Assembly (NCBI RefSeq): GCF_009914755.1
Contig: NC_060925.1
DNA: 64,000 bases
DNA from: the human T2T-CHM13v2.0 reference genome, Homo sapiens
Direction: 5' to 3' (one strand)
The position numbers and the translations under genes were made by a program. The notes below the pieces were generated by a model that had not been told where the DNA came from, did not search any database, and saw only the letters and a list, made by a program, of their open reading frames with translations. Position 1 is the stretch's first letter. Each line of letters begins with the position of its first letter. Below, piece by piece: positions 15,571-18,240 of this stretch.

Positions 15571-15645
15571 TTTATTACTCATTTCGAAAGCTTAATAAAT
15601 ACACAATATTTCACTGTAGAACATATAGTTCTAATTAAGTTTAAT
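15571..15645 (-). terminator. Candidate poly(A) signals of the antisense gene
   Basis: Minus-strand ATTAAA (15645-15640) and AATAAA (15576-15571), about 120 and 190 nt after the TGA, in AT-rich UTR-like sequence. Confidence 0.5.
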
Positions 15646-15761
15646 GTTCCTTTTACCCTAAGTTATTAAATGCAACATGGAGGCAAAGCACAAGAGAGTA
15701 CATGAAAATAAATATCTTCTTAAAGGAAAACAGTGGGGAAGGTGGCACAAATTAAGGAAAT

Positions 15762-16704
15762 TCACATCAGAGGGAGAACCCTGTTGGAGAAACAGTGAGG
15801 GGGAAACCCATTGGCAGAAGGAAACATGGAATAAGTGAGTTTCGTCGGAGGGGGGAACATAGAATGAGGGGGAACAGCAGCCTGAGGGGTAAATGCCTCT
15901 GGAGGGGGGAACACAGAGTGAGGGGGCACAGCAGCCTGAGGGGGAAATGCCTCTGGAGGGGGGAACACAGAGTGAGGGGGCACAGCAGTCTGAGGGGGAA
16001 ATGCCTCTGGAGGGGGGAACACAGAGTGAGGGGGGACAGAGGCCTGAGGGGGAAATGCCTCCGGAGGGGGGGACACAGAGTGAGGGGGGACAGAGGCCTG
16101 AGGGGGAAATGCCTCCGGAGGGGGGGACACAGAGTGAGGGGGGACAGAGGCCTGAGGGGGAAATGCCTCCGGAGGGGGGAACACAGAGTGAGGGGGGACA
16201 GAGGCCTGAGGGGGAAATGCCTCTGGAGGGGGGAACACAGAGTGAGGGGGGACAGAGGCCTGAGGGGGAAATACCTCTGGAGGGGGGAACACAGAATGAG
16301 GGGGGATAGCAGTTTGTGGGGGGAACACAGATTGAGAGGGAAGCAGGCTTGTCTGTTCTTCCACAGATGCAAATGTCTCTAACTGTTCCGTAGGCGCAGA
16401 GGACAAGGCTGCAGCCTCCCCGTCCTCTGGTGGGAGGATTTCTTCCTGCTTTTTCTTCAGGCCAGTGGCCTCCCTCACCTCAGGTGGGGGGATCTCTTCC
16501 TTCTCTTCCTTCAGGTCCATAGTCTCCTCCTCAGGTGGGGGGATTTTCTCCACCTCTTCCTTCAGGTTCACAGTCTCCTCTTCCTCGGATGAGGAGATTT
16601 TCTCCACCTCTTTCTTCAGGTCTGTGGCCTCCCCCTCTTTGGGCTGGGAGAGTTCCTTCTCTTCCTTCAGACCAGGGGTCTCCTCCACCTCAGGTCGGCA
16701 ATTA
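15762..16704 (-). CDS. Candidate nested antisense gene, large terminal coding exon (Glu-rich repeats, then Pro-rich repeats)
   Basis: 943-nt stop-free frame in non-TE sequence with no upstream in-frame ATG. Acceptor atatttag| at 16705/16704 follows an AG-free zone of about 60 nt with a pyrimidine tract and a ctcAt branch candidate. Its phase matches the 17571 donor. Confidence 0.6.
15848..16335. repeat. 54-bp G-rich minisatellite, about 8 full units plus partial ones, each unit made of three 18-bp subunits
   Basis: Repeats such as ggaacacagagtgaggggggacagaggcctgagggggaaatgcctc are directly visible. On the minus strand they translate as (SVFPPP-EAFPPQ-ASVPPH)n. Confidence 0.95.
16415..16695. 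repeat. Diverged 51-54-bp tandem repeat (about 5 units) encoding acidic E-x-E-x-x-x-LK[EK]E-x-E-x-I-[PS]3 units on the minus strand
   Basis: Recurring cttcagg/cttcaga anchors at 51-54-nt spacing. Unit lengths differ only by whole codons. Confidence 0.8.
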
Positions 16705-16934
16705 CTAAATATTTGATCATAAGAGTTGGGGAGGATGAGGGGAAACCAAGTAGTTCATTAAATGCCTAGTGAGACTTTAAGTAAACACAACCATTTGGCG
16801 ACTTAGGAAGTTCTAGTAACTTTAATGGTGATGCAATACCCATCACCAGCAATTCCAGATCTAGTTACCTGCCCTTAAACAACCACTCAAGATGTCTACA
16901 GCAGCACTGTGCCTAACAAGAAGGAGCCTAAGTT

Positions 16935-17231
16935 TTCTGTTTGTTTGTTTGAGACAGAGTCTCACTCTGTCACCCAGGTTGGAATGCAGTGGCACAATCT
17001 CAATTCACTGCAACCTCCGCCTCCTGGGTTCAAGTGATTCTCCTGCCTCAGCCTCCCTAGTAACTGGGATTACAGGTGTGTGCCACCATGCCCAGCTAAT
17101 TTTTGTATTTTTAGTAGGAAGGGGTTTCACCATGTTGGCCAGGCTCGTCACAAACTCCTGACCTCAGGTGATCCACCCGCCTCAGCCTCCCAAAGTGCTG
17201 GGATTACAGGTGTGAGCCACTGCACCCAGCC
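16935..17231 (-). mobile_element. Full-length Alu with TSD aagaaggagc(c/a)taagttt
   Basis: Alu consensus on the minus strand, with the duplication at about 16918 and 17232. Confidence 0.9.
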
Positions 17232-17570
17232 AAGAAGGAGCATAAGTTTAAAGGACCTGCAAGCATAAATTTAACCCACCTCCCCCATGTTGGAGGGCCG
17301 GGGCACCAGACACATTTCCAGGCCTCTGGGTCTAGCGGGACATGAGAGAAAAGTTTGCTGATCTGAGTAATGCAAAATGCAAGACCACAGCTGCAGATCT
17401 TAGGATTGGAGCTGGCCCCACCCAGGTGAAAGGACTCCAAACACTACAGCTCTGAAGCACATTCAAGTTACAGATACTTTAATGCCTATTGTCCGGGTAA
17501 GGACCTCAGAGTCCCTGTGCCTTCCCCAGAAGGAATCCCTTTCCTTCCCCTCTCCTCTATCCACTCTGAC

Positions 17571-17723
17571 CTGCATGTATTCATATCTGCCTCCCACACT
17601 AGATGACATTGGCTGCAAGCTCTCTGGAGGGCAGGGAACCTTTGCTCCCACTGGGTTTCCTCTGCCCCCATCTCTATTCTCAGAACCTTTCGCAGAAGTT
17701 TACAGCCAGGAGTGTAAGATTTA
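17571..17723 (-). CDS. Candidate nested antisense gene, first coding exon (ATG 17671; MGAEETQWEQRFPALQRACSQCHLVWEADMNTC)
   Basis: On the minus strand: acceptor ctcttttttaaaag|, strong Kozak GAGATGG, donor CAG|gtcaga at 17571/17570. The coding part is 101 nt and ends in phase 2. Confidence 0.55.
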
Positions 17724-17743
17724 CTTTTAAAAAAGAGCAAACT

Positions 17744-18048
17744 GCCCGGGCACGGTGGCTCACACCTGTAATCCCAGCACTTTGAGAGGCCGAGGCAGGC
17801 GGATCACGTGAGGTTAGGAGTTTAAGACCAGCCTGGCCAAGATGGTGAAACCCCGTCTCTACCAAAAATACAAAAAATAGCCGGGCGTGGTGGCGGGCGC
17901 CTGTAGTCCCAGCTACTTGGGTGGCTGAGGCAGAGAATTGCCTGAATCCGGGAGGCAGAGATTGCAGTGAGCCGAGATTGCGCCACGGCACTCCAGCCTG
18001 GGCGACACAGCGAGACTCCATCTCAAAAAAAAAAAAAAAAAAAAAAAA
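17744..18048 (+). mobile_element. Full-length Alu with 15-bp TSD AAAAAAGAGCAAACT
   Basis: TSD at 17729-17743 and 18043-18057, at a TT|AAAA L1-endonuclease site. Confidence 0.93.
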
Positions 18049-18110
18049 GAGCAAACTTCTCATTAGACTCTTTGCCTTCCCCAAAGCACACAAACATCTC
18101 CCAGCCTTAC

Positions 18111-18240
18111 CTCTGTGTTGTTCAGTCAGTCCCTGATGGTGATGGTGGAAGAGCTCTTCAGTGGCGGGGCTGAGCCAGCTCACAGACCATATCTCAGAGT
18201 TGAACTTACATGAACTCAAAGCTGAACACACCCTTTGGAG
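18111..18240 (-). other. Possible upstream non-coding exon of the candidate antisense gene (5' boundary unknown)
   Basis: Consensus donor GAG|gtaagg at 18111/18110 and a second donor CAT|gtaagt at 18210/18209. No open frame joins the downstream ORF, so it would be 5' UTR. Confidence 0.35.

What the first reader, a model, noticed from the sequence alone, without database searches (positions are those of the whole stretch)
15571..18240. Hidden spliced protein-coding gene candidate nested antisense in the PATJ intron (347 aa)
Seen in sequence: the 308-aa minus-strand ORF has no true start (it begins at GTG, with a stop about 22 codons upstream), but it follows an acceptor (tttag|16704) with an AG-free zone of about 60 nt. 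866 nt upstream is an exon with a strong-Kozak ATG (17671) and a CAG|gtcaga donor (17571) in the matching phase 2. Joining them gives MGAEETQWEQRFPALQRACSQCHLVWEADMNTC-S-NCRPEVEETPGLKEE... up to the TGA at 15762, followed by ATTAAA and AATAAA. Consensus donors at 18110 and 18209 suggest a 5' UTR exon. The exons are not TE-derived, and the neighbouring Alus lie outside them. Inference: an unannotated or poorly annotated nested gene, possibly restricted to germline or early embryo, or a recently decayed one. I do not recognise the protein and cannot check annotation. The acceptor's pyrimidine tract is offset from the AG, so the site is only moderately strong.
Basis: partly seen in the sequence, partly recalled or inferred. 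Interest (0 to 1): 0.92.

Follow-up and report, generated by a model that had tools for sequence, protein, structure and literature searches.

The report
Conserved unannotated reading frame inside PATJ
A long open reading frame on the opposite strand of a PATJ intron is built of repeats yet stays open in the same frame in cattle-like, rabbit and other mammalian sequences, so it may be the coding exon of a gene missing from the annotation, although its start and expression are unproven.

Summary
This covers the 330-codon minus-strand frame (15762-16754), the GTG at codon 23, the acceptor at 16704, the ATG at 17671, the donor at 17571, the in-frame 347-codon join and both poly(A) signals.

The frame has four parts:
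- five diverged acidic 17/18-codon units;
- a unique linker;
- an 8.5-copy 54-nt proline-rich array at 96% identity;
- a short tail.

It is single copy in the genome, has no Pfam domain and is predicted to be disordered.

The new evidence is cross-species. A yak model, a rabbit Gnomon model and 12 unnamed ORFs from metagenome assemblies (presumably mammalian host DNA) are colinear with it. All 14 match the human DNA best in this one frame. The flanking 'intron' and the sequence on either side of 'exon 1' change frame between species. Composition alone rarely keeps the acidic part open (0.5% of shuffles).

I therefore read it as a fast-evolving coding exon kept open by selection (about 0.45).

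- ATG-plus-donor pairs in the right phase are common (43 in 3 kb).
- The acceptor AG appears to be absent in two other species.
- The yak model uses a different donor.
- RefSeq has no transcript here.

An internal ATG at 16520 is an alternative start.

The parts
15762..16754 (-). Stop-to-stop open frame, 330 codons plus TGA (15762-15764). This is the candidate main or terminal coding exon.
   Evidence: 0 of 2000 dinucleotide shuffles were fully open. It is single copy apart from weak proline-rich matches.
16419..16682 (-). Five diverged acidic units of 17/18 codons (pattern E-[TA]-x-x-L-K-E-E...I-P-P-P-E). Spacing is 54, 51 and 54 nt, always a multiple of 3.
   Evidence: The same kind of unit appears in the yak, P0066 and P0026 sequences.
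16307..16418 (-). Unique linker (D-G-E..A-L-S..P-x-E-Q..E..E-E). It is the best-conserved non-repeat part across the homologs.
   Evidence: Alignments A1 and A2: Q124 is invariant and E123 is conserved in at least 90% of sequences.
15847..16306 (-). Proline-rich tandem array: 54-nt (18-codon) unit, 8.5 copies, 96% identity. It contains the S-V-F-P-P-P motif shared with all homologs. It is open in all three minus-strand frames.
   Evidence: Homologs carry 2-5 FPPP motifs, mostly in 12-residue units.
15765..15846 (-). C-terminal tail (..N-G-F-P-P-H-C-F-S-N-R-V-L-P-L-M). It resembles the tails of P0009, the rabbit model and the group of five. The stop codon position differs between species.
16518..16520 (-). 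First in-frame ATG (codon 79), with A at -3 and G at +4. It is an alternative start that would give a 252-codon single-exon CDS. An M in the same E-T-M-D-L-K-E-E unit context occurs in yak, P0077, P0078, P0026 and P0066.
   Evidence: The rabbit ORF and the group-of-five ORFs begin at an ATG that tblastn places a few codons from here.
16705..16765 (-).
   Evidence: This is one of 74 AG-free runs of 55 nt or more on this strand of the window. The AG is apparently not kept in P0026 or P0066.
17571..17671 (-). Its core, A-C-x-x-C-H-L-V-x-E-A-D, recurs in yak and P0086.
   Evidence: It is one of 43 phase-compatible ATG-GT pairs in 3 kb.
17460..17745 (-). Single-copy block around exon 1. It aligns to P0086 but in three different human frames, so the conservation is at the DNA level. 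It could be a promoter or 5' exon, or ordinary intronic DNA.
15571..15645 (-). ATTAAA (15645-15640) and AATAAA (15576-15571), 117 and 186 nt after the stop codon.
   Evidence: They lie in 33-35% GC sequence, where such hexamers are common.

Best explanation
The 15762-16754 frame is a real coding exon of a fast-evolving gene that is missing from the annotation. The gene is nested on the opposite strand of a PATJ intron and has been kept open by selection in placental mammals.

The encoded protein is intrinsically disordered. It has acidic 17/18-residue repeats, a short conserved linker, a run of S-V-F-P-P-P repeats and a short tail. In human the proline-rich part has recently expanded into an in-frame 54-nt array.

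Shown: the anatomy, the single-copy status, the colinear same-frame relatives, and the frame changes in the flanks.

Inferred: that selection rather than composition keeps the frame open, and that the human copy is still translated.

The 5' end is unresolved.

The most likely mode of action, by inference only, is a multivalent disordered scaffold. Its repeated proline motifs would dock proline-recognition domains, and its acidic repeats would carry charge. Expression would come from a CpG-poor, probably tissue-restricted promoter.
For: 1. Colinear relatives.
- The last ~220 residues of yak hypothetical protein M91_15046 follow the human order: exon-1 core, acidic units, linker, then FPPP repeats. 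tblastn against the window gives E = 1.3e-34 and 44% identity over 185 columns.
- A profile search found 13 proteins at E <= 0.01. One is the yak protein. Another is a rabbit Gnomon model named 'CPSF7-like isoform X2', whose cluster holds two member sequences.
- The exhaustive search added P0026.

2. One frame only. All 14 of 14 relatives match the window best in frame -3, between about 16754 and 15723.

3. Internal control from the flanks.
- P0026 matches the 220 nt upstream of the acceptor in two other frames: -2 at 16950-16846 and -1 at 16825-16727.
- P0086 matches the exon-1 region in at least two human frames, with the frame changing on both sides of the core.
- So flanking DNA changes frame about once per 110-125 nt, while the acidic part plus linker (365 nt against yak) does not change frame at all.

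4. Composition. The 374-nt acidic part plus linker is open only in this frame. Shuffles are open in a given frame 0.5% of the time.

5. Rough neutral simulation. The chance of those 124 codons staying stop-free is 0.20 at 0.15 substitutions per site and 0.06 at 0.3. With indels added it falls below 0.04. Rates and branch lengths are my recalled approximations.

6. Group of five. Five mutually 69-84% identical ORFs share the same start and stop, and differ at four indel sites.

7. Repeat period. The old acidic units keep a 3n period of 54/51/54 nt.
Against: - RefSeq (the table supplied with the finding) annotates nothing on this strand. No human, primate or named rodent protein was found. Among named sources, only one ab initio yak model and one rabbit Gnomon model exist.
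- Every non-human sequence is itself an ORF call, so species in which the frame is broken cannot be seen. This is ascertainment bias. The same database also holds ORFs (P0086 of 99 aa, P0087 of 64 aa) from flanking DNA whose human counterpart is read in more than one frame, with stop codons.
- There is no sign of selection on the amino acids. Identity to yak is 38-44%, no higher than pseudo-translations of the flanks (37-68%).
- Changes among the five human acidic units fall 15, 7 and 12 on codon positions 1, 2 and 3, so there is no third-position excess.
- The start codon is not fixed across species.
- There is no Pfam domain.
- The structure prediction gave mean pLDDT 53.8 and pTM 0.16 with no secondary structure. 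That fits either a disordered protein or a non-protein.
- Repeats with a 3n period generate in-frame indels by themselves.
- There is no CpG island.
Confidence: 0.45

Rival explanations
1. The frame was never coding. It is a non-coding pair of minisatellites whose purine-rich and proline-codon-rich composition and 3n-period units keep a frame open by chance. The matching 'proteins' from other species are mechanical ORF calls on orthologous intronic DNA.
For: - About half of the frame (161 of 330 codons) is a 96%-identical 54-nt array that is open in all three minus-strand frames.
- Shuffles of the region have a median longest open run of 143 codons.
- Most relatives come from metagenome ORF calling, which also produced ORFs from plainly non-coding flanks.
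- There is no amino-acid-level constraint.
- The structure prediction shows no fold.
- There is no annotation in human, and no primate or named rodent protein in the databases searched.
Against: - The acidic part plus linker is open in this frame only, which happens in 0.5% of shuffles.
- All 14 of 14 relatives keep that same frame over 115-365 nt of non-array sequence, while the flanks change frame about every 110-125 nt.
- The rough neutral simulation gives a few per cent or less per lineage, and several independent lineages are involved.
Confidence: 0.3
2. The gene is or was real in other mammals, but the human copy is a silent relic. Its frame is still intact, partly because the array is robust to stops. 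It has no dependable start codon or transcript, and the proline array is free to expand as an ordinary intronic VNTR.
For: - Human has no ATG in the first 78 codons.
- The rabbit model and the group of five begin with ATG and are compact, at 151-163 aa.
- The human array is much larger and younger than in any relative: 8.5 units of 18 residues at 96% identity, against 2-5 FPPP motifs elsewhere.
- An Alu sits about 70 nt upstream of the candidate exon 1, and another lies in the candidate intron.
- RefSeq lists no transcript.
Against: - The human frame carries no stop or frameshift over 330 codons.
- It retains the ATG at 16520 in a good context.
- Array expansion in whole 54-nt units is also what a tolerated coding VNTR looks like.
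Confidence: 0.2
3. One reading: a two-coding-exon gene (17671-17571 joined to 16704-15762) gives a 347-aa protein. This is a special case of the best explanation.
For: - The join is in frame.
- The ATG has G at -3 and G at +4.
- The acceptor follows a 59-nt AG-free, pyrimidine-rich zone.
- Cross-species frame changes stop just upstream of it, between 16754 and 16727.
- Frame changes also flank the exon-1 core on both sides.
- The exon-1 core recurs in yak and in P0086.
- In human the join places four cysteines at CX2CX10CX2C spacing (my reading).
Against: - There are 43 phase-compatible ATG-GT pairs in 3 kb.
- The donor has C at +3.
- AG-free runs of this length are common (74 in the window).
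- The acceptor AG is apparently absent in P0026 and P0066.
- The third cysteine is absent in yak and P0086, and the fourth is absent in P0066.
- The yak model uses other splice sites.
- P0087 is read in a different frame from the closely similar P0086 upstream of their shared part, which covers the exon-1 core.
- RefSeq has no spliced model.
Confidence: 0.17

Closest known systems
Yak hypothetical protein M91_15046 (P0001) and rabbit Gnomon model 'cleavage and polyadenylation specificity factor subunit 7-like isoform X2' (P0028)
   Same: These are the only named relatives. They share the order of acidic units, the linker (..A-L-S..P-K-E-Q..), the S-V-F-P-P-P repeats and the tail. The yak model also contains the exon-1 core, and a further piece that matches a single-copy site at window 56837-56953. 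That supports the same chromosomal neighbourhood.
   Different: - The first ~260 residues of the yak model are unrelated to this window, apart from the one short match at 56837-56953. One stretch looked to me like transposon-derived sequence; that is a recalled resemblance and was not tested.
- The yak model joins its exons at other sites.
- The rabbit name probably reflects proline-rich similarity only (my inference).
- The proline units are 12 residues long in these species, against 18 in human.
Genes nested on the opposite strand of a host gene's intron (for example F8A1 in F8, or OMG, EVI2A and EVI2B in NF1; recalled, not tested here)
   Same: A compact candidate gene lies antisense inside a large intron of a long host gene.
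   Different: Those genes have transcripts, annotation and known proteins. This one has none in the sources I could see.
Coding minisatellites with 3n units (for example the 54-nt, 18-residue repeat of PER3, or mucin repeats; recalled, not tested here)
   Same: A 54-nt unit repeated head to tail at high identity, so changes in copy number keep the frame.
   Different: The coding status of those repeats is established. Here it is inferred.
Formin FH1-type proline-rich regions (Pfam PF06346)
   Same: Proline-rich low-complexity runs. 4 of 14 relatives give weak matches, the best at E = 2.5e-4.
   Different: The human frame gives no match, and there is no FH2 domain. This is a resemblance in composition, not family membership.

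Membership tests
Protein-coding exon (operational criteria) | Open frame longer than composition predicts | tested here: met
   0 of 2000 shuffles of the whole frame were fully open. The acidic part plus linker was open in a given frame in 0.5% of 5000 shuffles. The proline array contributes nothing here, because all three frames are open there.
Protein-coding exon (operational criteria) | Reading frame kept across species while the flanks change frame | tested here: met
   All 14 of 14 relatives match best in frame -3. There are two frame changes in about 220 nt upstream (P0026) and frame changes on both sides of the exon-1 core (P0086). Caveat: the relatives are themselves ORF calls, so species with a broken frame cannot be seen.
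Protein-coding exon (operational criteria) | Purifying selection on the amino-acid sequence (excess of synonymous change) | tested here: inconclusive
   No DNA from other mammals could be obtained. Changes among the human acidic units fall 15, 7 and 12 by codon position. Identity to yak is 38-44%, no higher than pseudo-translated flanks.
Protein-coding exon (operational criteria) | Conserved start codon | tested here: inconclusive
   The human ATG at 17671 is not matched in yak, which has W at that position and an M further on. The ATG at 16520 recurs in the same unit context in five relatives. The rabbit model and the group of five start a few codons away. Repeats make the orthology of individual units ambiguous.
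Protein-coding exon (operational criteria) | Transcript, ribosome or peptide evidence | not testable with these tools
   No expression data were available. The supplied RefSeq table lists no gene on this strand.
RanBP2-type zinc finger (recalled pattern W-x-C-x2-C-x3-N-x6-C-x2-C) | Four cysteines at CX2CX10CX2C spacing, together with the W and N signature positions | tested here: not met
   The cysteine spacing appears only in the human spliced product (my reading). The W and N positions are not matched. Pfam gave only a sub-threshold zinc-ribbon match on the unspliced frame (E = 0.047, 13.9 bits against a cut-off of 26). The joined sequence was not submitted to any tool.
RanBP2-type zinc finger (recalled pattern W-x-C-x2-C-x3-N-x6-C-x2-C) | Cysteines conserved in relatives | tested here: not met
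   The third cysteine is absent in yak and P0086 (D-I-L). The fourth is absent in P0066 (K-R).
Formin FH1 region (PF06346) | Pfam match above threshold, with an adjoining FH2 domain | tested here: not met
   The human frame matched 0 families. 4 of 14 relatives gave weak matches. No FH2 domain was found.
Transposable element or retrocopy | Multiple copies, or a parent gene elsewhere in the genome | tested here: not met
   The own-genome protein search returned only the locus itself plus weak proline-rich matches to residues of about 108-328. Nothing matched the acidic part. The exon-1 block is single copy.
Minisatellite / VNTR | Head-to-tail array of 10-100-nt units at high identity | tested here: met
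   54 nt x 8.5 copies at 96% identity, and 51/54 nt x 3-4 copies at 71-80%. Copy-number polymorphism could not be tested. Being a minisatellite does not exclude coding.
Homer-type EVH1 ligand (recalled motif PPxxF) | Motif present and conserved | tested here: not met
   Human has 9 motifs. The yak-like sequences, P0066 and P0085 have 2-4. The rabbit model and P0084 have 1. P0009, P0026 and the group of five have 0. The classical F-P-x-hydrophobic-P motif is absent from all of them.

The most novel reading that the evidence does not exclude
A protein-coding gene shared by placental mammals is still missing from the human and mouse gene sets. It is nested antisense in a PATJ intron and encodes a disordered protein with acidic repeats and S-V-F-P-P-P repeats. 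The human allele carries an in-frame 54-nt variable array. Standard conservation-based gene finders would miss it, because only the frame is conserved and the residues are not.
Probability: 0.4. Interest if true: 0.8.

Novelty: new member of a known kind. Interest (0 to 1): 0.6.

Why it matters
- If the frame is translated, it adds a gene to one of the best-annotated genomes.
- It would also show a class that current methods overlook. These are repeat-built, fast-evolving disordered proteins in which selection is visible only as a preserved frame.
- The gene would sit inside PATJ, so intronic variants and repeat-length alleles now assigned to PATJ could act through a second gene.
- If the frame is not translated, the locus is a useful warning. 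Repeats with a 3n period, combined with metagenome ORF calls on host DNA, can mimic a conserved protein.

Tried and rejected
- ESM Atlas: closed for new sequences, for both the human frame and P0082.
- DNA of the relatives, needed for a codon-level test:
  - With A3, it returned only an unrelated bacterial match.
  - Two viral-contig scans found nothing.
- Pfam: nothing for the human frame. There was a sub-threshold LIN37 match and a sub-threshold zinc-ribbon match, and weak FH1 matches in 4 of 14 relatives.
- Rfam on 15000-19000: no family.
- Structure prediction with the 14-sequence alignment: no fold (pLDDT 53.8, pTM 0.16). I therefore ran no fold search.
- Codon-position test on the five human acidic units: 15, 7 and 12 changes, with no third-position excess.
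- Zinc-ribbon idea for the spliced N-terminus: rejected, because the cysteines are not conserved.
- Transposon or retrocopy origin: rejected.
- My first idea that the Glires-type ATG corresponds to the human GTG at 16688: dropped. tblastn aligns those N-termini to the later units near 16529, and the repeats make unit orthology ambiguous.
- Literature: five full-text searches found nothing describing a gene or repeat at this place. I saw the search listings only:
  - PATJ + VNTR + intron;
  - antisense, DT and IT names for PATJ and INADL;
  - INADL + minisatellite;
  - 'intron of' and 'within' PATJ or INADL;
  - PhyloCSF + PATJ.
  Supplementary tables of ORF catalogues were not searched and could still list it.
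Full report
**1. The observation**

- The frame 15762..16754 has 330 codons and ends in TGA.
- The acceptor tttag|T puts the first exon base at 16704.
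- The ATG at 17671 has G at -3 and G at +4.
- The donor CAG|gtcaga follows 17571.
- Exon 1 is 101 nt, so the join is in frame and gives 347 codons.
- ATTAAA (15645-15640) and AATAAA (15576-15571) follow the stop.
- Donor-like sites lie at 18110 and 18209.
- Two Alus (about 16933-17230 and 17716-18059) lie outside both exons.

**2. Anatomy**

The frame is built mostly of repeats.
- Five old, diverged acidic units of 17/18 codons lie at 16682-16419. Spacing is 54, 51 and 54 nt.
- A unique linker lies at 16418-16307.
- A young proline-rich array lies at 16306-15847: a 54-nt unit, 8.5 copies, 96% identity.
- A short tail follows.

The proline array is open in all three minus-strand frames and in one plus-strand frame. 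About half of the frame's length is therefore no evidence of coding. The acidic part plus linker is different. Only this frame is open there; the other five frames carry 1-8 stops.

**3. Chance**

- Dinucleotide shuffles of the whole 993 nt were never fully open (0 of 2000). Their median longest open run was 143 codons, so long ORFs are easy in this composition.
- For the 374-nt acidic part plus linker, a given frame was fully open in 0.5% of 5000 shuffles, and any same-strand frame in 1.2%.
In the 3 kb upstream there are 43 ATG-GT pairs with an open frame and the required phase.
- The donor has C at +3, which is rare by recalled consensus.
- AG-free runs of 55 nt or more occur 74 times on this strand of the window.

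**4. It is not a repeat family or a retrocopy**

A protein search of the window's own genome found the locus itself and only weak matches to the proline-rich part at other loci. Nothing matched the acidic part. The exon-1 block (17460-17745) is single copy. Pfam and Rfam give nothing.

**5. Relatives in other mammals**

This is the new evidence.
- The word-indexed search found one protein, yak hypothetical protein M91_15046.
- Its last ~220 residues follow the human order: the exon-1 core (A-C-x-x-C-H-L-V-x-E-A-D-M), then acidic units, linker and S-V-F-P-P-P repeats. tblastn against the window gives E = 1.3e-34 in frame -3.
- Another piece of the yak model matches a single-copy site at 56837-56953 on the same strand. 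This supports a shared neighbourhood.
- The exhaustive search gave 75 hits. Most were proline-rich low-complexity matches. Four were real relatives that also cover the non-proline part: P0009, P0026, P0028 and P0066.
- A profile of these found 13 proteins at E <= 0.01 among 7,999 scored candidates. They include a rabbit Gnomon model ('CPSF7-like isoform X2', whose cluster holds two members) and nine further unnamed ORFs, P0077-P0085. These come from short metagenome contigs and are most simply explained as mammalian host DNA.
- Five of the unnamed ORFs form a close group: 69-84% identical, with the same start and stop, and four indel sites.
- No human, primate or named rodent protein appeared in any of the three searches.

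**6. Frame behaviour**

All 14 of 14 relatives match the window best in frame -3, between about 16754 and 15723. Weaker frame -2 matches occur only inside the proline array, as expected for low-complexity sequence.

The flanks behave differently.
- P0026 continues upstream of the acceptor, but there it matches human frame -2 (16950-16846) and then frame -1 (16825-16727). It joins frame -3 only at 16754.
- P0086 is a 99-residue contiguous genomic ORF closely similar to the yak sequence. It matches human frame -2 at 17727-17683 and frame -1 at the exon-1 core. Downstream of the core it is again matched only out of frame with the core.
- P0087 is read in a different frame from the closely similar P0086 upstream of their shared part, which covers the exon-1 core.

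So flanking DNA changes frame roughly every 110-125 nt between these species. The 365 nt of acidic part plus linker compared with yak does not change frame. The same holds for the 115-313 nt compared with the other relatives.

A rough neutral simulation gives the following for the 124-codon acidic part plus linker. Rates and branch lengths are my recalled approximations.

| Divergence (substitutions per site) | Stays stop-free | With indels added |
|---|---|---|
| 0.15 | 0.20 | below 0.04 |
| 0.30 | 0.06 | below 0.04 |

Several independent lineages would each have to beat those odds.

**7. Evidence against coding**

- Every non-human sequence is an ORF call, so species with a broken frame are invisible. 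The same data hold ORFs from flanking DNA whose human counterpart is read in more than one frame, with stop codons (P0086 and P0087).
- There is no evidence of selection on residues. Identity to yak is 38-44%. That is no better than pseudo-translated flanks: 13 of 19 identical in one block by my count, and 37% over 78 columns.
- Changes among the human acidic units fall 15, 7 and 12 by codon position.
- I could not obtain DNA of the relatives for a codon test.
- The predicted structure is featureless: pLDDT 53.8, pTM 0.16.
- There is no CpG island.
- RefSeq lists no transcript on this strand.

**8. The 5' end**

- The residue covering the acceptor AG (S = AGT) is N in P0026 and H in P0066.
- The yak model joins after ..M-R-S-K, about 30 codons past the human donor. 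P0086 shows that the genome sequence there runs on as K-V-C-A-T, a GT-type donor site.
- The yak model's acceptor lies a few codons upstream of the human one.
- The human join does place four cysteines at CX2CX10CX2C spacing. However, the third is missing in yak and P0086, and the fourth is missing in P0066.

An alternative is the ATG at 16520 (A at -3, G at +4), which gives 252 codons.
- An M in the same E-T-M-D-L-K-E-E unit context occurs in yak, P0077, P0078, P0026 and P0066.
- The rabbit model and the group of five start at an ATG that tblastn places a few codons away.
- Unit orthology is ambiguous because these are repeats.

**9. Verdict**

- Best reading (0.45): a real, fast-evolving, disordered-protein coding exon that selection keeps open, with an unresolved start.
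- Rival 1 (0.30): a non-coding minisatellite pair whose frame is a product of composition and of ascertainment.
- Rival 2 (0.20): a gene that is real elsewhere but silent in human.
- The exact 347-aa model is a sub-case of the best reading, at about 0.17.

Function is inferred only: a multivalent proline-motif scaffold with acidic repeats. The recalled PPxxF and F-P-x-hydrophobic-P ligand motifs are not conserved.

Five literature searches found no description of a gene or repeat here (I saw the listings only). Supplementary ORF catalogues were not searched.

Noticed in passing
window 56837-56953 (-): Residues 160-198 of the yak model match this single-copy site (51% over 39 residues, E = 1.5e-4, with one stop in human). 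It lies downstream of the PATJ 3' end and about 700 nt from the RefSeq enhancer at 55623-56170. It may be a conserved non-coding element, or an exon of a longer minus-strand transcript.
   Followed up: partly
window 17716-18059 and about 16933-17230: Two Alu insertions have recognisable target-site duplications: about 15 nt (A-G-T-T-T-G-C-T-C-T-T-T-T-T-T) for the first and about 16 nt for the second. The first splits a block that is otherwise alignable to P0086 on both sides. A primate-specific insertion therefore sits about 70 nt upstream of the candidate ATG.
   Followed up: partly
window 15756-16382 (+) and 15893-16309 (+): Plus-strand open frames of 208 and 138 codons run through the same proline-rich array. 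Minus-strand frames of 273 and 203 codons do so as well. These are by-products of the repeat and show how little ORF length means inside the array.
   Followed up: yes
P0086 / P0087 (unnamed ORFs matching window about 17500-17730): Two unnamed ORFs, both closely similar to the yak sequence, share an identical 27-residue C-terminal part but read the upstream part in different frames. This implies a frameshifting difference between close relatives in the exon-1 region.
   Followed up: partly
first ~260 residues of P0001 (yak): The front of the yak model looks like a chimera. One stretch resembled a Tigger-type transposase C-terminus to me. That is a recalled resemblance and was not tested.
   Followed up: no
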